A stretch of 64,000 nt of DNA from a virus. Of the stretch, positions 42,978 to 55,938 are shown piece by piece (the stretch's first letter is position 1; every line of letters starts with the position of its first letter). The position numbers and the translations under genes were made by a program. Under the pieces are notes generated by a model that saw only the letters and a program-made list of their open reading frames with translations, did not search any database and was not told the origin of the DNA. Location: the IMG/VR virus record IMGVR_UViG_3300028844_007948, positions 99,425 through 163,424 of that record; one strand, 5' to 3'.

Positions 42978-43884
42978 TAAAAATATAATTTTGTGCTTTA
43001 GGCATCAAGCATTATTTCAAGGCAGGACAATGTCAACATTTTGTGGGTTAGGAGATATATTAAAAAGCTTTGTTAATGTTTATATATTTTGCAAGCAAAA
43101 TGGAATTGGATTTTATTTAAATTTTGACCATCATTGCATTAAGAAATTTTTAAATTTTAAAAAATTTGATTTTACTAAAACTTTTAAAGACATAGAGGTT
43201 CCAAAGGTAGTAGATTTCGTTAGTGGTTCTAATTTTTATTCTTATTTATGTGAATCTAATGAAGAGAACATTTTTTTAATGACAGATGGTAACAATATAT
43301 CTAATTTCTCTTATGTAGAAAACCTTGAAGCTGATTTTAAAGAAGTTTTTTTAAGCAATGAAAAAATAGCCGACAATATTAAGAATCAATATTCGGAACC
43401 TTATAATGTTTTTCATGCTAGACTGGGAGACGGAAATATGGTATCAAAGGATTTCCTAGATGATTATTATCTAAGAGACTTCTCTCATCAATATTCTGCA
43501 TATGATTGGTACAATTCTATCGATTTTAACTTTTCTTACGATTTTTTGTATAAGAATTTTAGCGAAGAAATAGCTTCTTCTGATTTCATATGTTCAGACC
43601 ACCTTTCTTTTAAAAAATTTATTTCAGAAAGAAGCGAAGTCAGATATGTAGATTTTGAAACAGTGCATTTAGGGCTTAAAAATTCCATGAAAAATATAGA
43701 GAAAACTCTTTATGATTTTTACATTTTATATTATTGCGACAATGCTTTTTCTGTATCCCATTATCCTTTTGGAAAAAGAGCTAGTGGTTTTGCATACTGG
43801 ATAGATAAAATTTTTATAAAAGATTTTAAATATTTTTCTTTTGATTGGCTTTATCAAAATATAAAACCATTAAAAGTCTATTAA
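42970..43884 (+). CDS. Putative fucosyltransferase (NodZ/GT23-like)
   Basis: CGLGD, FHARLGD, CSD, DFYIL, SGF motifs. Confidence 0.55.
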   Translation: MNNKNIILCFRHQALFQGRTMSTFCGLGDILKSFVNVYIFCKQNGIGFYLNFDHHCIKKFLNFKKFDFTKTFKDIEVPKVVDFVSGSNFYSYLCESNEENIFLMTDGNNISNFSYVENLEADFKEVFLSNEKIADNIKNQYSEPYNVFHARLGDGNMVSKDFLDDYYLRDFSHQYSAYDWYNSIDFNFSYDFLYKNFSEEIASSDFICSDHLSFKKFISERSEVRYVDFETVHLGLKNSMKNIEKTLYDFYILYYCDNAFSVSHYPFGKRASGFAYWIDKIFIKDFKYFSFDWLYQNIKPLKVY

Positions 43885-45015
43885 ATTTTTTCTTTTTAAG
43901 TGTCCTATTCTAGCCCTTAAAGAGTTTATTGATATGCCCATCATTTTAGATATTTCTTTTTGAGGTGTTTTATTTTTTAGCATTTTAGCTAATTTTTGGC
44001 TATCAATTTTAATTTGATTTCTAATCTTTTTTAATAAAGGATACCAACCTTGTTTCACACAAAGAGAAACTATTTGCTTATAGTTATATTTATTTCCAAA
44101 GAAATGTTCGCATAAATCTTTTGATGTGTATTTTTTAGGATTTAAAATTAGGATTTTTCCTATTTTATCTCTGTCTTTTTTTTCTATTGAGCATCTTGGG
44201 GTATTAAAAAAATCCTCGATTGCATTATTACCCTTCGTTACTTTATCGTAAGATTCATCTTTGAGGCTAAATCCATTAAAATGAGCTCTTACTTTATTTT
44301 TTATTTCTATAAAAGATGCGGATACTGCTTGTCTTGTTATGTTCAATTTAATTGCAATTTCATCGTGAGAAAATCCAGACTCTAAATATGCAAAAACTTT
44401 TCTTTGCTCATTCGTCAGTATAGATGAATAATCTTTTATTATTTTTAATATTTTTTTTTGTTTTTCTTTTTCGTCAAAATTATATCCAGCATCTTCAACA
44501 CCCTCTTTTTCCATTATAGCCTCATAAGTACTCTTAAGACCATTTTCTTCATCATAAACGGTTCCATCAACTCTTCTCTTAATATAAGATTTATTAATTA
44601 ATGTCCCTTGGCTCCATTTTATTAGATTTCTAGCATATATAAAAGCACAATGCTTAAAACTCTTTTGATTAAAAATTTTATTATTTTTGATGTATAAAAT
44701 TAAGTTATTTCTTTTTTTTAATAAAGATAAATTAATTTCGCTTGCCAATTCTTCTGCTGACAACAAATGAGTATTATATCTATATTTTGCTATTATCCTT
44801 TCGATGTCTTCCTGAAAATCTTCCAACCATATATTATATTTTTTTATTTGCAATTTCGTAGCCTTGAACTCCTTTTTTTCTAGCCTTTTTTGTGGAATTT
44901 TATATGAGCTTTTATCTACAGCTTCTGTTTTAAAAGTTTCTTTGCTTTTTGGTTTTCCATCTACATCAAAATAATCGTATAAAGTGCCTGGAATGTATGA
45001 TTTTTCTCTTTTCAT
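43870..45015 (-). CDS. Atypical sigma70-family factor with additional C-terminal HTH domains
   Basis: Region-4 HTH LTNEQRKVF...SHDEIAIKLNITRQAVS; extra HTH QKEISKMMGISINSL; paralog of 46029..46703. Confidence 0.65.
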   Translation of the reverse strand: MKREKSYIPGTLYDYFDVDGKPKSKETFKTEAVDKSSYKIPQKRLEKKEFKATKLQIKKYNIWLEDFQEDIERIIAKYRYNTHLLSAEELASEINLSLLKKRNNLILYIKNNKIFNQKSFKHCAFIYARNLIKWSQGTLINKSYIKRRVDGTVYDEENGLKSTYEAIMEKEGVEDAGYNFDEKEKQKKILKIIKDYSSILTNEQRKVFAYLESGFSHDEIAIKLNITRQAVSASFIEIKNKVRAHFNGFSLKDESYDKVTKGNNAIEDFFNTPRCSIEKKDRDKIGKILILNPKKYTSKDLCEHFFGNKYNYKQIVSLCVKQGWYPLLKKIRNQIKIDSQKLAKMLKNKTPQKEISKMMGISINSLRARIGHLKRKNLIDF

Positions 45016-46042
45016 GGGTTAAACGGGGTTTTGAAAGGACTTGGGTATTCTTTTCTCCAATCCACTTCTCCTTTAGTTTCTCTCATCATTTTTTTAAGGT
45101 GAGAATATTTAATATTTAAAATCTTAGCGGCATCAGATCTTACATTGTTAGATTTGGCTAAAGCTTCTTTTATTCTTGGCTTCCAGTATTCTAACCTTTT
45201 ATTCCTTCTGGATAGCCCTGTGTTTTTTATATTTTCGTTTTTTTTTTAATTTGTTCTTTTGTTAGATTGAAAGGTACAAATCCATTATCCATCATTCTTT
45301 TTATTACAACTTTTTGGGTCGCAGATCTCTCTTCTTTGGAAACTCTGGGCGGCGGATGTTTTTCATAAGGGTATTCTTTATTCCACCAATCAAGCCCGTT
45401 GATTCTTTTCATCAACTTGTATAATTGGGTTCTACCCATGTTTAGGTATTCAGCTGTCTTTTTTCTATTATTGCCTGATTTTATAAACCCCTCTATTATT
45501 CTTGATTTCGTTTGTGCCATTTCTTTTTTATCCCATTCAACCCATTCTGTACCATTCCATTTCTTACCAATCCTTTTTTCTATTGGTAAATGCTTTCCTT
45601 TTCTATGTAAAGTTGAATAGCTATTTGGACCAGACTTAAATCCAATAGTTTTTAAATGATTATAATTTGTTTTATTGAATCTATTGGTGTATCCATCAGG
45701 TCTTTTTATTTCGAATTTAAATATGTGGTCATTCTCATTTGGATATGCTGCTAATTTTATTTGATCCCAATTTGCAAAAGTTAATTTTTTATTTTCTATT
45801 TTATATCCAGAGTGAAACATAAACCCTTGAATTGATTTTATTTTTATTTTATCTTCTTGTAATCTGAGCTTTAATATTTTTTTTGCATTTTTATATGAAT
45901 TTGATTTTAAAAATGTTTTAAAATCTTTTTCTGATCCATCTTCATATACCTCTGTATACGCAATATTCCAATATTGGTCGAAAGGATAATCAGTTTTCCT
46001 AAAAACCTTTTGGCAGCATGTTTTTTTCCTACCCCTTTTCAC
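45012..46042 (-). CDS. X-domain protein with two Fis-like HTHs (-1 frameshift at A10, 45238-45247)
   Basis: Frame 0 stops at 45227; the -1 frame continues with a second HTH (RIKEALAKSNNVRSDAAKILNIKYSHL...WRKEYP) to a TGA at 45012 overlapping the next ATG. Confidence 0.7.
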
Positions 46043-46703
46043 TTTGAAATAATCTCTCCATAGATTTATAACCTTCTGAAATTTTCTCCCAACATTCGTC
46101 GTTTAAGAAATTATTCTTAATTCTACATTTTAATTTTTCCTCTAACCTTATGACGTTAAAACTTATCGCCTGATGAGTTACTCCCATTTCTTTAGCCATA
46201 TCTTTTTGCTTTTTTCCTTGTAGTAGCATGTCAATTAACTGAACTTCATTTTTAGTCAAATGGTCCGAGTAATTTTTAATTAATTTTAAAAAATATTTAT
46301 GTTTTTGGTTTTTGTCAAAATCGAAGTCATGATTAACCCCCTCAGTATATTCCATCATTTCAAATGAACTTTTCTCCCCCTCTCTTGTTTTGATGACACA
46401 ATCCAATCTCCTTGAATTATATTTATCCTCAACTTTTCTGCACTGATACCAGACAACAGCATTTTTTATAAAACTACAAATTTGGAACCTAAAACATTCA
46501 AAATTGAACTCATCAAACATATCGTTTCTAAAGTTTATAATCTTATCTTTTCTCTTTAAAATGTTGAAGTTTAAATCACTAGCGATTTCTTCAACACTCA
46601 TTAAGTGGTTATCTCTTCTCTTTGACCCTATTATTCTCATTATATCAGGTTGAAATTCTGATAAATATTTGTAAAACTTTTCTTCTTCTTCTTCTTTATT
46701 CAT
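46029..46703 (-). CDS. Atypical sigma70-family factor
   Basis: VEEIASDLN region-2-like helix; LTKNEVQLI...QKDMAKEMGVTHQAIS region-4 HTH. Confidence 0.65.
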   Translation of the reverse strand: MNKEEEEEKFYKYLSEFQPDIMRIIGSKRRDNHLMSVEEIASDLNFNILKRKDKIINFRNDMFDEFNFECFRFQICSFIKNAVVWYQCRKVEDKYNSRRLDCVIKTREGEKSSFEMMEYTEGVNHDFDFDKNQKHKYFLKLIKNYSDHLTKNEVQLIDMLLQGKKQKDMAKEMGVTHQAISFNVIRLEEKLKCRIKNNFLNDECWEKISEGYKSMERLFQSEKG

Positions 46704-47311
46704 ACTAAATTTTTTAATTTTTCTTGGTTTTTCTTGAATGCTTGTTCTGCTAATAGATGGTTAATTTTATACTTGAATAAGTAATTATTTTCATTAGGAA
46801 AGCTGCAGTTTCTAATATTGTACCAATCTTCTATGGACAATCTAGCTCCATCTTTTTGCAAAAAACTAGAATGAAACATGAACCCTTGAATTGATTTTAT
46901 TTGAGAACAATCAGAGTCTTCGTTGAATTTTTCTTCCAATATTCTTTTTGCGAACATTAAAGATCTCGCCTTAATCACTGAAATGTATTTAGTTTCAGAT
47001 TTATCTAAATTTACCACTTCGTAGTACATCTTCCAATATTGGTCGTAACCAAATTTTTTATTTTTAAATTTATTTTGCATATTTATTTTTTTCTTTTTGG
47101 TAAAGCATTTCCTGCATCCCTTCGTTGCCTCTGGCGTGTTTTTGCATGTTCTTAAGTGTTCTCTGGGTAATATAAAGAAATCCCCATGAGTTTTGCATTT
47201 TAATTTTACTTTTGTTTGATTGTTAATATAGACTATGTCATCATAATTGTATCTATCTCCATGAATACTTATAGCTTGTTTAATAAATTCTTCTCTAGTT
47301 TTTTTTTTCAT
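46700..47311 (-). CDS. Zinc-ribbon (homing endonuclease-type) + X-domain protein
   Basis: EEFIKQA...HGDRYNY...CKTHG...GCRKC followed by DQYW...KSIQGFMFH...FPNEN. Confidence 0.7.
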   Translation of the reverse strand: MKKKTREEFIKQAISIHGDRYNYDDIVYINNQTKVKLKCKTHGDFFILPREHLRTCKNTPEATKGCRKCFTKKKKINMQNKFKNKKFGYDQYWKMYYEVVNLDKSETKYISVIKARSLMFAKRILEEKFNEDSDCSQIKSIQGFMFHSSFLQKDGARLSIEDWYNIRNCSFPNENNYLFKYKINHLLAEQAFKKNQEKLKNLV

Positions 47312-47544
47312 TCTTTTTTGTCAACTTTTTTATCGACTCTTTTTCTGAATAAAATATTATTCTCATATTCGCCCACAGACCTTCCAATCTTAAAAGAAAA
47401 CTTGTCTATGAATATTATTAATCCCACTATAACATATAGAAAATAATTTGTCAACTCTATATTTAATACTAAAAGATATATTAATAATCCATAAGGTAAA
47501 AATTTATTTACTAAATATTCTAACATTGCTTGATTATTACTCAT
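47308..47544 (-). CDS. Small two-TM membrane protein
   Basis: Two hydrophobic stretches; overlaps the ECF sigma stop; ATGA-coupled to the next gene. Confidence 0.6.
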   Translation of the reverse strand: MSNNQAMLEYLVNKFLPYGLLIYLLVLNIELTNYFLYVIVGLIIFIDKFSFKIGRSVGEYENNILFRKRVDKKVDKKE

Positions 47545-48115
47545 TTTCGAACCTCCCATAAACTTCATATTGGTTAATTTTTCTTTTTGCACATTTTGTT
47601 AAGGCTTGTCTCATCCTGTGCATTGTGGATGAAACAGCTCCGATACTTCTTCCTGTTATTTTTGATATTTCTTTCATTGTTTTCTCTTCTTTATACCACA
47701 ATTTTGCTATTATAGCCATTTGTTCTGGTAATGTTTCATAGCATAAGCTTAAAGCTTTAGATTCTAAATCAAGGTCTTGTTTAGACATGTTTTTGGATTG
47801 ATCCATCATATCCTCTAAAAATTCACTATTAAATGACAATTTATTCCTTTTTGATTTTTGCAAAAATGCCATTATTTGAAATCTCGCTATTCTAAAAGCC
47901 CATGTTTTTAATCCTCCTTTTTTGGGGTCAAACTCTTTTTTCTTCTTGCAAACAATTAAATTTGTTTCTTGTAAAACGTCTAAAGCATTTGGTTTTGATA
48001 TTAAAATAGAAAAAATAAATGAAAATAAATTCTTTTGTATTCTTTCTAATTCGAAATCGAAATCAAAATTATCATCAACCTTTTTCTGTTTATTCTTTTT
48101 TAAAGCTTTTATCAT
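47537..48115 (-). CDS. ECF sigma factor (Rhodopirellula/Verrucomicrobium type)
   Basis: DVLQETNL...EFDP...KTWAFRIARFQ; LPEQ...MKEISKITGRSIGAVSSTMHRMRQAL. Confidence 0.85.
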   Translation of the reverse strand: MIKALKKNKQKKVDDNFDFDFELERIQKNLFSFIFSILISKPNALDVLQETNLIVCKKKKEFDPKKGGLKTWAFRIARFQIMAFLQKSKRNKLSFNSEFLEDMMDQSKNMSKQDLDLESKALSLCYETLPEQMAIIAKLWYKEEKTMKEISKITGRSIGAVSSTMHRMRQALTKCAKRKINQYEVYGRFENE

Positions 48116-48347
48116 TTATGAATAGTCTATCCTCCCATTTCTGGGAGTAAGGGTTAAATTTTTCTATAGAAATGTCTTGAGCACACAACCTGCGCCTTAA
48201 AAGCATTGATTTGTGGGCTCTTAGAGCTTCGCTTGCACTTTTAGCCATAAAATAATGGTAACTATCTTGGGCAATATGATCTTGGCCAGCGTTGTATCTT
48301 ACCCTATATTCAAATAACTTGTATTCTTTATACTTTTTATTCTTCAT
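48090..48347 (-). CDS. Hypothetical protein
   Basis: ATG at 48347; YRVRY...YFMAKSASEAL. Confidence 0.6.
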   Translation of the reverse strand: MKNKKYKEYKLFEYRVRYNAGQDHIAQDSYHYFMAKSASEALRAHKSMLLRRRLCAQDISIEKFNPYSQKWEDRLFINDKSFKKE

Positions 48348-48516
48348 TCCCTTTCCAATATATATCATCAAATAAAATAAATTTAATTTCATCTTCAAAT
48401 TCTACATCAACCCCTACAGGGTCACCTTCTACGACAGGCATATCAGAATCTTTGTAAAAAAATTCTTCTTCTTCTGAAGCTTTTACTAATTGACAGGACA
48501 TTGATTCTATATTCAT
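48337..48516 (-). CDS. Small acidic protein (59 aa, not in ORF track)
   Basis: MNIESMSCQL...WKGNEE*; ATGA overlap with the upstream gene. Confidence 0.6.
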   Translation of the reverse strand: MNIESMSCQLVKASEEEEFFYKDSDMPVVEGDPVGVDVEFEDEIKFILFDDIYWKGNEE

Positions 48517-48773
48517 ATTTTTATTTCTAATTGTTTCTGATTGTTTTTTGATGATAACACTTTTTTTTGGATATTGTCAATGTTTTTTTTATTTTTTTTG
48601 AAATTCTTTTGTGCTATCCTCACCATGAACCTCATCAAGGAGAAAGAATAAGCTTTGCTGAAACTTATGGTTTGAGCTTCTTCTGTTTCTTTATTTTTGA
48701 TAGTTACTTGAAATTGTTTTAATTCAGAATCGTACTCAAATTCTCCAAATTTTAGTTCTTTTATTATTTTCAT
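48513..48773 (-). CDS. Hypothetical protein
   Basis: 86-aa ORF within the operon. Confidence 0.6.
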   Translation of the reverse strand: MKIIKELKFGEFEYDSELKQFQVTIKNKETEEAQTISFSKAYSFSLMRFMVRIAQKNFKKNKKNIDNIQKKVLSSKNNQKQLEIKI

Positions 48774-48774
48774 G

Positions 48775-49824
48775 TCAATCGTTCGGAATTGTTTTAATTA
48801 TTTCTCTTGCCATTGTTGGTGGAAAACATTCTCCTAGGACTTTTCTAATAAATCCTTCTGAATATTTATTTTTAAATTTATTTAACAAATCACATGGAAT
48901 CCCACATAAAATAGCCAACTCCATGACCGATAAAACCCTGGCATCAGAATAAGTTCCATCTAACAATAGTCTTCCAGGGTGAACATTGTTTTGGCTTGAT
49001 ATTGCCCCATTGCACATGGTTACAGTAGGTGATGGCTTATCCCAATCTATCCTCTTGTATGTTGTCATAAAGCCTTTAATCCTTCTTCCATCTTTTTTTG
49101 GATAATGAATTTTATTATTAAATGCTGTTTGCCCTGTTGGGGTATTCTTCATCCAAGTTACGTGATTGGAGTTATGTTTTTTTGCATAATGCCAAGGCAT
49201 GTTAGTTTTACCCCCAGATTCCAAGGAAGGCAAATGTCCTATTGCATCTCTTACGGTTACTAATTTTTTACTAGGAGCAGGATGTTCCCATTTCCCATCT
49301 TTAGAAATCAAACCTATAAATCTTTTTCTTGATTGCGGGGTGTTATAGTTTTCAGCGTTTAGTGCTTTGTAATTCATTAACCAAGGCTTTGAAAGCCTTG
49401 ATTCTATATATTTAATTATATTTATAACTTCACCATCTACCTTAATCCATGTGTTTGCCATCCCTGCTACATTTTCTATCAACATGTAATCAGGCTTTAT
49501 TTCATTAAATACATCCATAGCATGTACTATTAAAGAATTTCTAGGGTCGCTACCCGACCTTTTTGCATTAGCCACACTCATTCCTTGGCAGGGGGGCGTT
49601 GCTATTATCAAATTGATATTTTTACTTAACGATTTTTGGCAAATTTCTTTTTTTATATCTTTTTTTGTTACATCTCCAACTATAACATCGGTTTCTGGAT
49701 GAAGTTTTTTGTAAAACATGCACCTACTCTCTTCAATTTCATTTGCTAGGACTATATTAATCCCCGCAGGCTTTAAAAGTACTTCGCCGAACCCAACATT
49801 TGCAAAAAGAGATAATCCGTTCAT
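48775..49824 (-). CDS. C5-cytosine DNA methyltransferase (orphan)
   Basis: SLFANVG, GDV, TPPCQGMS, IENV, PQSRKR, GECFPP; no obvious cognate restriction enzyme adjacent. Confidence 0.9.
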   Translation of the reverse strand: MNGLSLFANVGFGEVLLKPAGINIVLANEIEESRCMFYKKLHPETDVIVGDVTKKDIKKEICQKSLSKNINLIIATPPCQGMSVANAKRSGSDPRNSLIVHAMDVFNEIKPDYMLIENVAGMANTWIKVDGEVINIIKYIESRLSKPWLMNYKALNAENYNTPQSRKRFIGLISKDGKWEHPAPSKKLVTVRDAIGHLPSLESGGKTNMPWHYAKKHNSNHVTWMKNTPTGQTAFNNKIHYPKKDGRRIKGFMTTYKRIDWDKPSPTVTMCNGAISSQNNVHPGRLLLDGTYSDARVLSVMELAILCGIPCDLLNKFKNKYSEGFIRKVLGECFPPTMAREIIKTIPND

Positions 49825-49855
49825 TTAGCAAAATATACTTTAATTTTCAAACTTA

Positions 49856-50248
49856 TCAAGAAAAAGTTTCCCAATATTTTAGAACATTAGCTTTACTAGA
49901 ATTAACGGAAAATAGATTGAACAAGAATTTGCCCTCCCCTATGTGGTATTTTGAAACAAAAAATACATCATCAAATATTTGCTTCATGGAATTTTCAAAA
50001 ATTTTTTCATTTTTTTCCAAATATAGGATTTTCATAAACGAATCTTCGTCCATTAAATCTTCTATAAAGTCTTCCTGGAGAAGTAGTAATAAAATATCTT
50101 GACATTTCTTGACTGAGATTTTCTTCCCGTCAAAACCGCCAGACAATAAAAGTTTTAATTTAAATTTTTTAAAAAAAAATTCTATTTTTTTGTCAAAAAA
50201 GTCTCTACAATCTTTAAAGATGTAATTCTCGACTTTACTTTTTGACAT
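49856..50248 (-). CDS. Hypothetical protein
   Basis: ATG at 50248 avoids overlap with the upstream gene. Confidence 0.5.
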   Translation of the reverse strand: MSKSKVENYIFKDCRDFFDKKIEFFFKKFKLKLLLSGGFDGKKISVKKCQDILLLLLQEDFIEDLMDEDSFMKILYLEKNEKIFENSMKQIFDDVFFVSKYHIGEGKFLFNLFSVNSSKANVLKYWETFS

Positions 50249-50252
50249 TTGC

Positions 50253-50450
50253 TTACAGCTTTTCGTCACCCTGCTTCCATTTTGAACACCATCTGTAGCT
50301 TTGCACATTGACTACTTTTCCTTTGTCTTCCTCGGATAGATAGTTTACTGCGCTTCTGAGGTTCACTTGCAATGTGTCTATTAAAGCATAAAGATCGGCT
50401 ATTTGCTTTTCTTGATTATGTATTTGTAGTTTTAATTGTCTTTCGTTCAT
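50253..50450 (-). CDS. Small coiled-coil hypothetical protein
   Basis: 65-aa ORF at operon-like spacing. Confidence 0.55.
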   Translation of the reverse strand: MNERQLKLQIHNQEKQIADLYALIDTLQVNLRSAVNYLSEEDKGKVVNVQSYRWCSKWKQGDEKL

Positions 50451-50455
50451 TTTTT

Positions 50456-51133
50456 TTATCCAAAAGGAAATTTAATTTTGTTAAAATAAGAAATTTGATC
50501 TTCAGAAAAGAATTCCCAACCATTGATTTCGCATATTATTTTTACGACCTCAAGAAAATAGAGATAATTCGGATGGTTTGTTTGGTCTAGGCTTTTTATT
50601 TCGCTATTTCTTTTTAATATGTAGTCTCCAGTCACCCTAACTCCAAGGTCTTTATCGTGTTTATCCATTTCCCTTTTAAATCTTTTGGCTTTGTCATGAT
50701 GGTGAAATGATGGGATAGATATTAATTGAGCAGAATCTTTTGCTAACCATTTTACTCTACCAAAGTTTAAAATACTAGAGGTTTCGGGTTTAATTTTTTG
50801 AAATATTATCACATCCGATAGTTGTATCATCTTTTTTATCTTGACAGCTTCATGAATGTTGTATTTCACATCTCTTTTATTATTCTCAACTAGTCTATGT
50901 CTATTTTTTCTGTTGGCGTGAAGAAACATTTTGCTTTTAAATTCATCTTTATATAACTCTTTCATATGGTTAGAAAATCTTTCTGCTACCAAAAAGTTAC
51001 AAACTGCCTCTCTGTTTTTTGATGCCGAACTTACTTGTGGAAGCCTTCTTAGATACCATGCTATAGCTTCAGCTTGGCAATTTCCGATGACTGAAATCCT
51101 CGCATTAAATGAGCTTTTTTCTTCTTTCTCCAT
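50456..51133 (-). CDS. WcbI-like polysaccharide-modifying protein
   Basis: VIGNCQA, DVIIFQ, TNHP. Confidence 0.55.
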   Translation of the reverse strand: MEKEEKSSFNARISVIGNCQAEAIAWYLRRLPQVSSASKNREAVCNFLVAERFSNHMKELYKDEFKSKMFLHANRKNRHRLVENNKRDVKYNIHEAVKIKKMIQLSDVIIFQKIKPETSSILNFGRVKWLAKDSAQLISIPSFHHHDKAKRFKREMDKHDKDLGVRVTGDYILKRNSEIKSLDQTNHPNYLYFLEVVKIICEINGWEFFSEDQISYFNKIKFPFG

Positions 51134-54532: not shown

Positions 54533-55045
54533 ATGGATTATTCAGAAAAATATCTATTTATAGTGTATTATACAATATATGTAGATAAGTCCAGAGACTA
54601 CAAAACTTTTATAAAATCTAAAGATAGGGATTCAGCTAAAGATGTTTTTACAAAAAAAATCAAAAAAGATTGCAAGGGGCTTTTAATTAAAAATTTGAGG
54701 ATTGTAAAAGTCAACAGAAGTAAATACAGAGGAGTTTCAATATCAGATAAGCAATGGGAGTCCTTAAAAAAAATATCTTACCCTAATTCAAAACATGTAT
54801 TATCAAAATTACCTAAAGATTGTTGGTTCAGAAGACCTGTTTCTAAAAACAGAAATGCAGATGGAACATTTAAGATGGGTAATACTCCTTGGAATAAAAA
54901 TTTTAAAATTAAATTTATTAAAAAAAATAAAAAAGGATGTTTTTCAAGACCTAGAGATGGTATGGGCAGGTTCAGAAAAGGCTGTAAGTGTTTAATGGTT
55001 GGTGTTAAAGATGAAACCTTTAAAAAATTACATTCAAAAAAATAG
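54533..55045 (+). CDS. X-domain protein with NUMOD-like C-terminal repeats
   Basis: YKTFIKSK...AK, W....ISYPN; RNADGTFKMG, PWNK, RDGMGRFRKG. Confidence 0.65.
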   Translation: MDYSEKYLFIVYYTIYVDKSRDYKTFIKSKDRDSAKDVFTKKIKKDCKGLLIKNLRIVKVNRSKYRGVSISDKQWESLKKISYPNSKHVLSKLPKDCWFRRPVSKNRNADGTFKMGNTPWNKNFKIKFIKKNKKGCFSRPRDGMGRFRKGCKCLMVGVKDETFKKLHSKK

Positions 55046-55400
55046 CTATAAATCTATATTCAATAAAATATATTCAAATTTTTTAAGCCAAGACTACAAA
55101 GAAGATGAAGTTATTAAATTTTCTTTATCTTTTAGAATTTTTTATGAAAAATATAAAAATTTCGAAAAAAAAGTTCAAACTTCTATTTGGGTTGAAAAAA
55201 ACGAGCATAATTTAATTGAAATTTCTTATGGCAAAAAGTATAATATGTTCAAGGTTCGTAAACCTCTGGAAGGAAAATTTTCAGAAGACTATGTATTCTC
55301 AGAAATAATAAATAAAGACAAATTATCTCAAGATATTATTTATTGCTTAATAATCATTAAAATTATTAGTTTATTAGATGAGAAAAAAAAACAACACTAG
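55011..55400 (+). CDS. Hypothetical protein
   Basis: ORF bridging its two neighbours. Confidence 0.5.
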   Translation: MKPLKNYIQKNSYKSIFNKIYSNFLSQDYKEDEVIKFSLSFRIFYEKYKNFEKKVQTSIWVEKNEHNLIEISYGKKYNMFKVRKPLEGKFSEDYVFSEIINKDKLSQDIIYCLIIIKIISLLDEKKKQH

Positions 55401-55938
55401 AAGGAAAGAAAAAATTTTACTTTTAAGGTCTGAAGGTAAAAGCTATAATGAAATACGAGATATTCTAGGTTGTTCAAAATCTGTTATTTCTTATCATTGC
55501 GGAGAGTATCAAACGGAAAAAAAACGAGTACTAAATCGGAACAAAAGCAAAGACCACAAGTTATCCAGAAAAATAGGAGCATTTAAAAGCAGGATAGCTA
55601 AGGATGGATTCAGAGCGAAATTAAAAACATTTAAGCGTAGAAATCCCAAAAACAGAACTCATACTATTGTTAATAATATTTCTAAAAACTTTACAACAAA
55701 GGATGTTATTGATAAATTAGGTGATGAGCCTAAATGCTATCTTACTGGAACTCCGATAAATCTTCACAATACCGAAACTTATCATTTTGACCATATAATA
55801 CCTACTTCAAAAGGTGGAACTAATGATCTTTCCAATCTTGGTATATGTATCAAAGAAGCTAACAGAGCTAAAGACGATCTTTCCATAAAAGAGCTTATAT
55901 TTCTTTGTCAAAAAATTTTAAATCATTTAACTAAATAA
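55378..55938 (+). CDS. HNH endonuclease with N-terminal HTH
   Basis: GKSYNEI...GCSKSVISYH; CYLTG...HFDHIIPTSKGGTNDLSNL...ANRAK. Confidence 0.85.
   Translation: MRKKNNTRRKEKILLLRSEGKSYNEIRDILGCSKSVISYHCGEYQTEKKRVLNRNKSKDHKLSRKIGAFKSRIAKDGFRAKLKTFKRRNPKNRTHTIVNNISKNFTTKDVIDKLGDEPKCYLTGTPINLHNTETYHFDHIIPTSKGGTNDLSNLGICIKEANRAKDDLSIKELIFLCQKILNHLTK

What the first reader, a model, noticed from the sequence alone, without database searches (positions are those of the whole stretch)
43870..48115. Tandem [X-domain protein + atypical sigma factor] cassette behind an ECF sigma
Seen in sequence: an inverted block of six overlapping genes, three of the five junctions being ATGA overlaps. The order is ECF sigma, 2-TM protein, X1 (46700-47311), sigma A (46029-46703), X2 (45012-46042), sigma B (43870-45015). 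Sigma A and B are clear paralogs (FQ.DI.RII, HL.S.EE.AS, RR.D, IK.YS..LT, T.QA.S). X1 and X2 share DQYW...KSIQGFMFHS...W..I....PNEN. The duplicated unit is therefore a two-gene module. Inference: each sigma-like protein has a dedicated, translationally coupled DNA-binding partner (co-activator, anti-sigma or targeting subunit). This would be a phage transcriptional cascade that I cannot match to a described system.
Basis: partly seen in the sequence, partly recalled or inferred. Interest (0 to 1): 0.85.

Follow-up and report, generated by a model that had tools for sequence, protein, structure and literature searches.

The report
Phage sigma factors with paired partners
An uncultured 163-kb marine phage has an operon with one ordinary ECF-type sigma factor and two very divergent ones, each preceded by a gene for an undescribed ~110-residue domain; the pair stays together in every related phage contig examined, so the domain is probably a dedicated sigma partner, but its role is untested.

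Summary
On the minus strand lie an ECF sigma, a small 2-TM protein, X1, sigma A, X2 and sigma B. The sigmas are paralogs (32% identity) and so are the X domains (38%).

Sigma A and B are true but very divergent sigma-70-family proteins. They match the phages' own ECF sigmas profile-to-profile at 96% probability, and the AlphaFold model has sigma-2 and sigma-4 folds.

X is an undescribed alpha/beta domain with no Pfam, PHROG or convincing PDB match. It was found only in viral and metagenome contigs. An X2-type gene is followed at once by a sigma of this family in 38 of 38 distinct contigs, and X1 by sigma A in all 13.

Corrections:
- X2 is not one ORF. A -1 break at an A10 tract splits off a second Fis-type HTH. 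The break recurs in independent assemblies and in a second lineage, and one assembly is in frame.
- X1 orthologs are bare X domains. The DNA-binding head of this X1 is a strain-level insertion.
- A third X paralog pairs with an HTH-HNH endonuclease, not a sigma.

Best reading: X is a sigma-specific docking co-factor. This is a new variant of known phage sigma-plus-partner systems (phiEco32 gp79/gp36, SPO1 gp33/gp34). This scan noted the same cassette before on other DNA.

The parts
47537..48115 (-). ECF-type (group 4) sigma factor, 192 aa
   Evidence: Pfam Sigma70_r2 E 1.8e-10 (40.9 bits, cutoff 24). Sigma70_r4 and r4_2 at 23.3 bits, just under their cutoffs. phrog_1740 E 4.8e-17. Orthologs in L001, L002, L004, L006, L010, L013, L016 and L019.
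47308..47544 (-). Small 2-TM protein, 78 aa from ATG 47544. Its start overlaps the ECF stop by 8 nt, behind GGGAGG
   Evidence: Sequence. Orthologs align from residue ~17-22 of the longest ORF. In single-module phages the homolog lies 2.5-4 kb away with no ECF sigma beside it, so an anti-sigma role is not supported.
46700..47311 (-). X1, 203 aa: a homing-endonuclease-associated DNA-binding head (aa ~1-70) plus the X domain (aa ~85-190). ATGA overlaps at both ends
   Evidence: phrog_681 E 4.5e-9 on aa 2-90. tblastn of aa 1-62 hits 375 phage records. The X domain aligns with stand-alone 126-147 aa orthologs. P0166, a 137-aa relative at least 90% identical, lacks the head.
46029..46703 (-). Sigma A, 224 aa: divergent sigma-70-family protein (sigma-2, linker with a beta-hairpin, sigma-4, extra C-terminal helix)
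   Evidence: hhalign against the phage ECF family: 96% probability, E 4.4e-9, 162 columns. AF2 model pLDDT 76.7. Foldseek top hits are almost all sigma factors. VIA: sigma-2 vs sigmaE region 2 (4lup_A) Z 8.0, rmsd 3.2 A, 81 residues; sigma-4 vs 3vfz_A Z 8.1, rmsd 2.0 A, 61 residues.
45227..46042 (-). X2 short ORF, 271 aa, GTG start: X domain (aa ~15-112), conserved basic GFK.G region, then a Fis/NtrC-type HTH (aa 172-216)
   Evidence: Pfam HTH_8 at 25.3 bits against a cutoff of 22. AF2 model pLDDT 86.3. NtrC1 DNA-binding domain (4l5e_A) Z 7.0, rmsd 2.3 A, 46 of 46 residues.
45238..45247 (-). A10 tract (contains an in-frame A_AAA_AAA heptamer): the site of the -1 frame break in X2
   Evidence: One of only three A/T runs of 10 or more in the 163-kb genome. 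L002 has the same break at an A10 tract. A11 would be in frame.
45012..45240 (-). X2 tail in the -1 frame (~72 codons): a second Fis-like HTH. Its TGA overlaps the sigma B ATG
   Evidence: Translation. 43% identical to the first HTH. 35-59% identical to the in-frame C-termini of orthologs. P0164 (343 aa) equals the short ORF plus this tail.
43870..45015 (-). Sigma B, 381 aa: ~55-aa N-terminal extension, sigma-2/sigma-4 core paralogous to sigma A, then a C-terminal winged-HTH domain
   Evidence: Pfam Sigma70_r4_2 at 32.7 bits against a cutoff of 25.7; HTH_24 and Crp-like hits at aa 340-380. phrog_1740 and phrog_1190 sigma-factor hits. BLASTP against sigma A.
48090..51133 (-). Upstream genes of the same minus-strand block: three small conserved ORFs, a C5 cytosine methyltransferase (48775-49824) and three further ORFs
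   Evidence: Pfam DNA_methylase E 6e-46. Block structure. Orthologs in relatives in the same order.
54533..55045 (+). X3, 170 aa: third, divergent X-domain paralog with NUMOD-like basic motifs, not next to a sigma
   Evidence: hhalign against the X family: 96.3% probability, E 1.9e-9, 113 columns. X-family HMM E 4.6e-29. Orthologs at 41-49% identity in L001, L003, L004, L013, L016 and L019.
55378..55938 (+). HTH-HNH endonuclease, 186 aa: the conserved downstream neighbour of X3
   Evidence: Pfam HNH_4 E 1.5e-7 plus an N-terminal HTH. phrog_6050 E 1.5e-31. Orthologs at 51-73% identity, directly after X3 in L003, L004 and L013.

Best explanation
Each divergent sigma factor (sigma A, sigma B) works with the X-domain protein encoded just upstream. 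The two are made in fixed proportion by stop/start coupling.

The X domain docks on its cognate sigma or on the sigma-RNA polymerase holoenzyme. It acts as a positive co-factor, stabilising or targeting the phage holoenzyme. X2 adds one or two Fis/NtrC-type HTH domains that would hold the complex on DNA upstream of the promoter.

The ECF sigma at the head of the cassette, and a fourth ECF-like sigma elsewhere in the genome, work without X.

In this phage, full-length X2 requires slippage at an A10 tract, most likely by RNA polymerase. Sigma B's start overlaps the stop of that shifted frame and has no Shine-Dalgarno sequence, so sigma B synthesis may depend on slippage too. The tract could therefore set how much of the X2-long/sigma B pair is made.

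Shown here: gene order, paralogy, sigma folds, universal pairing, the frame break and its recurrence.

Inferred: physical X-sigma contact, a positive sign of action, the recoding mechanism and the coupling to sigma B.
For: - An X2-type gene is followed directly by a sigma of this family in 38 of 38 distinct contigs with downstream DNA. This includes a remote X2-like subfamily. X1 is followed by sigA in all 13 distinct contigs (16 of 16 loci).
- Stops and starts overlap by 1 or 4 nt in 7 of 11 X1-sigA pairs and 14 of 24 X2-sigB pairs, against 24 of 140 same-strand junctions genome-wide.
- X1/X2 and sigA/sigB each split on one branch (100% support) with mirrored subclades. This fits one duplication of the pair followed by joint inheritance.
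- X pairs only with the divergent sigma family, not with the two ECF-type sigmas.
- Sigma A and B are sigma-70-family proteins. They carry a conserved extra helix after sigma-4 (D202, G211 and F219 invariant or nearly so), which is a candidate docking site.
- Most X1 orthologs are bare X domains, so the core role of X does not need a fused DNA-binding module. X2 has genuine Fis/NtrC HTHs, which fits an activator better than an inhibitor.
- Precedents: phiEco32 gp79 binds and stabilises the phage sigma gp36 in the open complex (PMC12276001). SPO1 sigmas bind promoters weakly and need the DNA-binding helper gp27 (PMC13401047).
- Recoding: the A10 break occurs in 5 of 6 sequence variants of this phage's X2 cluster and in all 4 of the L002 lineage, from independent assemblies. 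One 343-aa variant is in frame. The tail is as conserved as the body (59% vs 61% identity against L002) and keeps its stop/start overlap with sigB.
Against: - No direct evidence of X-sigma contact.
- Co-inheritance in one conserved operon would mirror the trees without any interaction.
- Tight gene packing is common in this genome.
- The third X paralog pairs with an HTH-HNH endonuclease, not a sigma. X may therefore be a more general module.
- X carries or neighbours DNA-binding pieces typical of homing endonucleases: a phrog_681 head on X1 and NUMOD-like GFK.G..W motifs in X2 and X3.
- The sign of action (activator or inhibitor) is not determined.
- For the recoding part, homopolymer length errors do occur in these data sets: L034 has A7 where the near-identical L029 and L030 have A8. 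One assembly of this same phage is in frame. No stimulatory RNA structure follows the tract.
Confidence: 0.45

Rival explanations
1. X is an anti-sigma or timer. It binds its cognate phage sigma one-to-one and keeps it inactive until a cue releases it, such as DNA replication, titration by DNA through X2's HTHs, or proteolysis.
For: Sigma and anti-sigma genes are typically adjacent and translationally coupled (established for ECF and sigma-28 systems). The strict 1:1 pairing and co-duplication fit an inhibitor as well as an activator. All three sigmas lie in one co-directional block, so some post-translational ordering would be useful.
Against: No anti-sigma domain is detectable in X. The partner gene precedes the sigma, whereas anti-sigmas usually follow it. 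X2 has two sequence-specific-type HTH domains, which are unusual for an anti-sigma. Described phage sigma partners act positively on the phage sigma (PMC12276001).
Confidence: 0.2
2. X acts on the host transcription machinery rather than on the phage sigma. It would bind host RNA polymerase or the host primary sigma and shut off host or early promoters, and it is encoded next to the phage sigma only so that both arrive together.
For: SPO1 gp33 is encoded beside the late sigma gp34 and traps the sigmaA holoenzyme (PMC13401047). The phiEco32 gp79 N-terminus displaces sigma-70 region 4 (PMC12276001).
Against: Two diverged X paralogs are each kept with their own sigma paralog. That is hard to explain if both target the same host protein. 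X shows no similarity to gp33 or gp79 in the PHROG and PDB searches.
Confidence: 0.15
3. X is a general DNA-binding or targeting module, or a degenerate nuclease-associated domain, unrelated to sigma function. Its adjacency to sigma genes reflects a frozen operon order only.
For: X3 sits next to an HTH-HNH endonuclease in this genome and in six relatives. X1 here carries a homing-endonuclease-associated head. X2 and X3 have NUMOD-like basic motifs.
Against: X genes are not sporadic like homing endonuclease genes. They are present in every relative and co-diverge with their neighbours. The pairing survives rearrangements: an ECF sigma inserted between sigA and X2 in L004, L013, L016 and L019; single-module genomes with a different upstream context; and the remote subfamily. 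The HMMER scan of 1.84 billion proteins lists no protein with a matched X-domain region longer than 422 aa, so no fused catalytic partner is seen.
Confidence: 0.1
4. On the frame break only: the A10 tract is a homopolymer sequencing or assembly error, or a neutral polymorphism, and the phage really encodes an in-frame 343-aa X2.
For: P0164 from an independent 161.7-kb assembly is in frame. L034 differs from L029 and L030 by one A in another tract. A10/A11 tracts are the longest homopolymers in the genome.
Against: The truncated form recurs in five sequence variants from several independent assemblies of this lineage. It also occurs in all four variants of the L002 lineage (at least 9 contigs; JGI, ENA and Logan sources). 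The break is at the same codon in lineages only ~62% identical in X2.
Confidence: 0.25

Closest known systems
phiEco32 gp36 (ECF-like phage sigma) with gp79 (PMC12276001)
   Same: A phage-encoded group-4-like sigma depends on a small dedicated phage protein that binds it and stabilises the open complex. gp36 (9m7y_F) is among the top Foldseek hits of the sigma A model. The genome also has a single-element promoter-like motif, GTGTA, 17 times within 40 nt of gene starts against 2.3 expected. From memory, this resembles the single-element gp36 promoter.
   Different: X has no detectable sequence or fold similarity to gp79. X is encoded directly upstream of its sigma and has duplicated with it. 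X2 carries its own HTH domains.
SPO1 late sigma gp34 with gp33, plus the DNA-binding helper gp27 (PMC13401047)
   Same: A small partner gene sits beside a phage sigma gene within a multi-sigma phage programme. The phage sigmas bind promoters weakly and need a DNA-binding helper, which could parallel X2's HTH domains.
   Different: gp33 is now described as an inhibitor of host sigmaA holoenzyme, not a gp34 subunit. PHROG scans show no homology to X. The host is a Firmicute and the phage is a cultured myovirus.
T4 gp55/gp33 late system and MotA/AsiA sigma appropriation (from memory)
   Same: Promoter recognition is split between a sigma or sigma fragment and separate phage proteins, one of which (MotA) binds DNA.
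   Different: The T4 genes are not adjacent paired modules. gp55 lacks sigma-4, whereas sigma A and B keep it. PHROG scans show no similarity of X to gp33, AsiA or MotA.
Two-subunit sigma SigO-RsoA of Bacillus subtilis (from memory)
   Same: Two co-transcribed genes jointly provide sigma function.
   Different: There the sigma-2 and sigma-4 functions are split between the two proteins. Here sigma A and B each contain both domains, and X is not sigma-like.
ECF sigma/anti-sigma pairs
   Same: Adjacent, translationally coupled, co-evolving gene pairs.
   Different: No anti-sigma domain is present in X. The gene order is reversed. X2 has DNA-binding domains.
Transcriptional slippage or -1 frameshifting at poly(A) tracts (dnaX, IS elements, endosymbiont poly(A) rescue; from memory)
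   Same: An A10 tract containing A_AAA_AAA separates a conserved downstream ORF in the -1 frame.
   Different: No stimulatory structure is present. Tract length varies between assemblies. Expression was not measured.

Membership tests
Sigma-70 family, group 4-like (sigma A, sigma B) | Sigma-2 domain fold | tested here: met
   Residues 2-96 of the sigma A model align to E. coli sigmaE region 2 (4lup_A): Z 8.0, rmsd 3.2 A, 81 residues. pLDDT is about 90 over residues 1-90.
Sigma-70 family, group 4-like (sigma A, sigma B) | Sigma-4 HTH domain | tested here: met
   Sigma B: Pfam Sigma70_r4_2 at 32.7 bits against a cutoff of 25.7. Sigma A: only GerE is above its cutoff (25.8 vs 23.5), but the model aligns to SigD sigma-4 (3vfz_A) at Z 8.1, rmsd 2.0 A, 61 residues, and to SigF sigma-4 (8jzt_C) at Z 8.2.
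Sigma-70 family, group 4-like (sigma A, sigma B) | Pfam Sigma70_r2 match at the gathering threshold | tested here: not met
   No Sigma70_r2 hit for either protein at E up to 1. Region 2 is recognised only profile-to-profile and by fold.
Sigma-70 family, group 4-like (sigma A, sigma B) | Full-length homology to bona fide ECF sigmas | tested here: met
   hhalign of the 45-sequence family against the phages' own ECF sigmas: 96% probability, E 4.4e-9, 162 columns spanning regions 2 and 4. phrog_1740 gives full-length weak hits.
Sigma-70 family, group 4-like (sigma A, sigma B) | Binds core RNA polymerase and directs promoter-specific initiation | not testable with these tools
   Needs biochemistry.
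ECF sigma (47537-48115) | Regions 2 and 4 only, about 190 aa | tested here: met
   Sigma70_r2 at 40.9 bits (cutoff 24). r4 and r4_2 at 23.3 bits, just under cutoffs of 24.1 and 25.7. Length 192 aa.
Anti-sigma factors (for X or the 2-TM protein) | Recognisable anti-sigma domain, or conserved adjacency of the membrane protein to the ECF sigma | tested here: not met
   No Pfam hit for X1, the X domain or the 2-TM protein. The 2-TM homolog occurs without an adjacent ECF sigma in single-module phages.
Known phage sigma partners (T4 gp33, SPO1 gp33, phiEco32 gp79, AsiA, MotA) | Sequence or fold similarity of X to any of them | tested here: inconclusive
   No PHROG family matches the X domain at E up to 0.1. 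None appears among the Foldseek or VIA matches of the X2 model. Absence from such lists does not exclude a relationship.
Fis/NtrC-type HTH (X2 C-terminal part) | HTH_8 profile match and fold | tested here: met
   Pfam HTH_8 at 25.3 bits against a cutoff of 22. NtrC1 DNA-binding domain 4l5e_A: Z 7.0, rmsd 2.3 A, 46 of 46 residues; Fis: Z 5.7-6.2.
Programmed -1 frameshift / transcriptional slippage (X2) | Slippery tract, with a conserved ORF continuing in the -1 frame | tested here: met
   A10 with an in-frame A_AAA_AAA heptamer. The 72-codon tail is open and homologous to the in-frame C-termini of orthologs.
Programmed -1 frameshift / transcriptional slippage (X2) | The break is conserved across lineages and reproducible across assemblies | tested here: met
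   Same site in L002. 5 of 6 variants in this lineage's X2 cluster and 4 of 4 in the L002 lineage's cluster are truncated. One assembly is in frame.
Programmed -1 frameshift / transcriptional slippage (X2) | Downstream stimulatory RNA structure (classical ribosomal frameshifting) | tested here: not met
   Window: z -1.26. L002: no structure, z +1.02. Transcriptional slippage needs no such structure.
Programmed -1 frameshift / transcriptional slippage (X2) | Both protein isoforms, or heterogeneous mRNA, observed | not testable with these tools
   Needs reads, cDNA or proteomics.

The most novel reading that the evidence does not exclude
X is a new class of sigma-docking subunit. With its cognate divergent sigma it forms a two-part promoter-recognition factor, and X2 contributes upstream DNA contacts through Fis-type HTHs. 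In this phage lineage, slippage at a poly(A) tract in X2 sets the dose of the X2-long/sigma B pair. That would be a recoding-controlled sigma switch.
Probability: 0.25. Interest if true: 0.8.

Novelty: new variant of a known kind. Interest (0 to 1): 0.62.

Why it matters
Phage sigma factors and their helpers have shaped our understanding of transcription initiation: T4, SPO1 and, recently, phiEco32. All characterised examples come from a few cultured phages.

Here a whole clade of abundant, uncultured marine phages keeps a very divergent sigma family locked to an undescribed protein domain. The clade has no cultured relative: its DNA polymerase is under 30% identical to any GenBank phage.

If X docks on sigma, it is a new way to build or control a holoenzyme. 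It could also supply orthogonal sigma/partner pairs for synthetic circuits. The two diverged pairs in one genome offer a built-in specificity test.

The A10 break in X2 may be a natural case of homopolymer slippage setting the dose of a transcription factor. The claim is directly testable with a handful of expressed proteins.

Tried and rejected
Searches that found nothing:
- GenBank phages: megablast of the cassette and tblastn of sigma A gave no match.
- IMG/VR scan with sigma A alone gave nothing. Alignments of X worked instead.
- 185,579 prokaryote genomes contained no X relative.
- ESM Atlas gave no usable hit for the X domain.
- Pfam on 42 X-family members gave only scattered sub-threshold hits: DUF5745 in 6 members, best E 0.0047.

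Fold of X:
- Foldseek against PDB gave nothing at E up to 0.001.
- BFVD gave only short ~60-aa phage proteins, all at E 0.03 or weaker.
- VIA-wide gave a best Z of 6.2 to ribosomal protein eL20/LX, which is at background level.
- No GIY-YIG or other nuclease fold appeared. This does not exclude one.

Readings rejected:
- The 2-TM protein as anti-sigma. Its homolog is uncoupled from any ECF sigma in single-module phages.
- X as a mobile homing-endonuclease gene. It is universally present and co-diverges with its neighbours.
- The 133-aa ORF after X3 as a sigma. hhalign probability is 0.2%.
- The N-terminal HTH of the HNH protein as sigma-4-related. hhalign probability is only 5.9%.
- L034's frame break as support for frameshifting. 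It is A7 against A8 in near-identical contigs.

Promoters:
- Sigma-70-type promoter scans were not above shuffles.
- A TTGACA-N16/17-TATnnT match inside the 2-TM gene is shared by the window and L002 but absent in L006. It may be constrained by the coding sequence.
- No -35-like element accompanies GTGTA.

Full report
CONTEXT

The window is the last 64 kb of a single 163,424-bp contig. GC content is 33.6%. The contig encodes a ribonucleotide reductase, a DnaB-type helicase, a DnaE-type polymerase, a Clp-type ATPase and virion proteins. It is therefore a large tailed phage. No GenBank phage is close: the polymerase is under 30% identical to any record, and neither the cassette nor sigma A finds a match. 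Relatives come from marine and other environmental metagenomes.

THE OBSERVATION

The six ORFs exist in the stated order on the minus strand. They are the distal part of a 13-gene minus-strand block, 43870-51133, set between plus-strand blocks.

- The first gene is a regular ECF-type sigma. Sigma70_r2 scores 40.9 bits against a cutoff of 24, and region 4 scores just under its cutoff.
- The 2-TM gene really starts at ATG 47544 behind GGGAGG, overlapping the ECF stop by 8 nt.
- Sigma A and B are paralogs: 32% identity over 222 aa, E 3e-29.
- X1 and X2 share a ~110-residue domain: 38% identity, E 4e-21.
- TM/X1, X1/sigA and X2-tail/sigB are ATGA overlaps.

CORRECTION TO X2

The X2 frame stops at 45227. 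The last 72 codons, down to 45012, are open only in the -1 frame. That frame is entered at an A10 tract, seen as T10 at 45238-45247 on the plus strand. The tail encodes a second copy of the Fis-like HTH, 43% identical to the first. It aligns with the in-frame C-termini of orthologs.

ARE SIGMA A AND B SIGMA FACTORS?

By single-sequence Pfam scan, only the C-terminal HTH is recognised. Sigma B hits Sigma70_r4_2 above its cutoff, and sigma A hits GerE above its cutoff. No region 2 hit appears.

A 45-sequence family alignment was compared with an alignment of the phages' own ECF sigmas. The match has 96% probability and E 4.4e-9 over 162 columns covering regions 2 and 4.

The AlphaFold2 model of sigma A has mean pLDDT 76.7, and about 90 over the first 90 residues. 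Foldseek against PDB returns almost only sigma factors:
- B. subtilis SigH
- M. tuberculosis SigL and SigH
- E. coli sigmaE
- phiEco32 gp36
- sigma-28
- WhiG

Domain by domain:
- Sigma-2 aligns to sigmaE region 2 (4lup_A) at Z 8.0, rmsd 3.2 A, 81 residues.
- Sigma-4 aligns to SigD sigma-4 (3vfz_A) at Z 8.1, rmsd 2.0 A, 61 residues.

So they are sigma-70-family proteins by descent and fold, and very divergent in sequence. Both carry a conserved extra helix after sigma-4, with D202, G211 and F219 invariant or nearly so. Sigma B adds an N-terminal extension and a C-terminal winged HTH. Core binding is untested.

WHAT IS X?

The AlphaFold2 model of X2 is confident, with mean pLDDT 86.3. It has three parts:
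- an N-terminal alpha/beta domain (strands 23-32, 38-47 and 67-75; helices 50-62 and 89-98);
- a conserved basic stretch with a GFK.G motif;
- a Fis/NtrC-type HTH, which matches the NtrC1 DNA-binding domain at Z 7.0, rmsd 2.3 A, 46 of 46 residues.

The X domain itself has no match:
- no Pfam or PHROG hit;
- nothing from Foldseek against PDB at E up to 0.001;
- only background-level VIA hits, best Z 6.2 to ribosomal protein eL20/LX.

A profile search of 1.84 billion representative proteins found only 136 proteins at E up to 0.001. Among those whose matched region covers the X domain, none is longer than 422 aa. The family is therefore small and no fusion to a sigma is seen. No relative was found in 185,579 prokaryote genomes.

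DOES THE PAIR RECUR?

Scans of IMG/VR and metagenome contigs with X alignments returned 47 loci.

- An X2-type gene is followed at once by a sigma of the A/B family in every locus that has downstream DNA. That is 33 of 33 loci in the first set (30 distinct contigs). It is also 8 of 8 contigs in a remote X2-like subfamily, where the sigma HMM scores E 1e-51 to 1e-82.
- X1 is followed by sigma A in 16 of 16 loci, or 13 distinct contigs.

Two architectures exist:
- a double module: ECF, TM, X1, sigA, X2, sigB, with an ECF sigma between sigA and X2 in L004, L013, L016 and L019 instead of at the head;
- a single X2-sigB module in a different upstream context.

Trees show one branch separating X1 from X2 (100% support) and the sigB clade from sigA (100% support). 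The subclades mirror each other. This fits one old duplication of the two-gene unit.

X-to-sigma junctions overlap by 1 or 4 nt in 7 of 11 and 14 of 24 non-redundant pairs. Genome-wide the figure is 24 of 140 same-strand junctions. Shine-Dalgarno motifs are not enriched before genes in this genome: 21 of 163 against an 11.7% background. Coupling is therefore a plausible way to start translation of the sigma genes.

CAVEATS TO 'DEDICATED DNA-BINDING PARTNER'

(a) X1 orthologs elsewhere are bare 126-147 aa X domains. The N-terminal head of this X1 is a homing-endonuclease-associated module: phrog_681 E 4.5e-9, and 375 phage records hit by aa 1-62. It is absent from P0166, a relative at least 90% identical.

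(b) The genome has a third, divergent X paralog at 54533-55045 (hhalign 96.3%). Here and in six relatives it is followed by a conserved HTH-HNH endonuclease, not a sigma. In the relatives this X3-HNH pair lies in the same operon, upstream of the methyltransferase.

(c) Two ECF-type sigmas have no X: the one in the cassette and a second at genome 13842-14564.

(d) The 2-TM protein is not tied to an ECF sigma in single-module phages.

THE FRAME BREAK

An A11 tract would put the tail in frame. The closest relative, L002, is about 62% identical in X2 and has the same break at an A10 tract at the same codon. Other relatives are in frame.

The exact-sequence look-up shows the following:
- In this phage's 90% cluster, five sequence variants are 271 aa, from several independent assemblies.
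- One variant, P0164 from a 161.7-kb ENA contig, is 343 aa. It equals the short ORF plus the -1 tail.
- In the L002 lineage, all four variants are truncated.

Tail conservation equals body conservation: 59% against 61% identity versus L002. The tail's stop keeps its overlap with the sigB start in both lineages.

Only three A/T runs of 10 or more exist in the whole genome. Two are in X genes.

No RNA structure follows the tract. If the break is real, RNA polymerase slippage is more likely than classical ribosomal frameshifting.

Homopolymer errors do occur in these data. L034 differs from the near-identical L029 and L030 by one A. I put an artefact or neutral polymorphism at about 25%.

PROMOTERS

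GTGTA occurs within 40 nt upstream of 17 gene starts against 2.3 expected. Most of these are structural genes, including the tape measure protein. No -35-like partner accompanies it. Which sigma reads it is unknown.

MECHANISM

The best-supported reading is that X docks on its cognate sigma or holoenzyme as a positive co-factor, and that X2 adds upstream DNA contacts (confidence 0.45).

Rivals:
- X is an anti-sigma or timer (0.2).
- X acts on the host polymerase, as SPO1 gp33 does (0.15).
- X is a general DNA-targeting module with no sigma-specific role (0.1).

Precedents read here:
- phiEco32 gp79 displaces host sigma region 4 and then binds and stabilises the phage sigma gp36 (PMC12276001).
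- SPO1 gp33 traps the sigmaA holoenzyme. The phage sigmas gp28 and gp34 bind promoters weakly and need the DNA-binding protein gp27 (PMC13401047).

NOVELTY

The kind, a phage sigma plus a dedicated partner, is known. The partner family, its strict genomic coupling, its co-duplication and the possible recoding control are new. I file it as a new variant of a known kind.

The scan noted the same cassette before on other DNA (e1-5344676, e1-5965990). One of those reports claims that X clamps a helix behind sigma-4. I could confirm only that such a conserved helix exists. I could not test the contact.

LIMITS

- No multimer prediction was possible.
- The host is unknown.
- No expression data were available.

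Noticed in passing
window 54533-55938: The third X paralog (X3) is followed by a conserved HTH-HNH endonuclease. In L003, L004 and L013 the two genes abut. In relatives this pair sits in the same operon as the sigma cassette, upstream of the C5 methyltransferase. So all three X paralogs precede a gene for an HTH-bearing protein.
   Followed up: partly
window 47299-47308: A second A10 tract (minus strand) forms codons 2-4 of X1, directly after the ATGA overlap with the 2-TM gene. Together with the X2 tract, these are two of only three A/T runs of 10 or more in the 163-kb genome.
   Followed up: no
window 47100-47311 (X1 aa 1-70): The homing-endonuclease-associated head of X1 is an in-frame indel polymorphism. 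P0166 (137 aa), a relative at least 90% identical, lacks it, and every more distant ortholog lacks it too.
   Followed up: partly
G000:C1:13842-14564 (minus strand; outside the window): A fourth sigma-like gene in the genome matches the phage ECF profile at E 5.5e-8. No X gene is nearby.
   Followed up: no
whole genome; e.g. window 4043, 7621, 8667, 13420: GTGTA lies within 40 nt upstream of 17 gene starts against 2.3 expected, mostly before structural genes. No -35-like element accompanies it. It is a candidate phage-specific single-element promoter.
   Followed up: partly
whole genome: Shine-Dalgarno-like motifs are not enriched upstream of genes: 21 of 163 against an 11.7% background. This hints at a host that does not use Shine-Dalgarno sequences, such as marine Bacteroidota.
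   Followed up: no
L021:4484-5938: A 484-aa protein with a Cas12f1-like TNB domain (TnpB-like; Pfam PF07282, E 8.1e-12) sits directly upstream of the X2-sigB pair in this single-module phage contig. It is probably an IS element insertion.
   Followed up: no
window 47308-47544: The 78-aa protein has two TM helices and a highly charged C-terminal tail. It is conserved across the clade and is holin-like in layout. Its function is unknown, and it does not behave as an anti-sigma by synteny.
   Followed up: partly
window 48775-49824: The C5 cytosine DNA methyltransferase in the same operon is the best-conserved gene of the block, at 72-81% identity across relatives.
   Followed up: no
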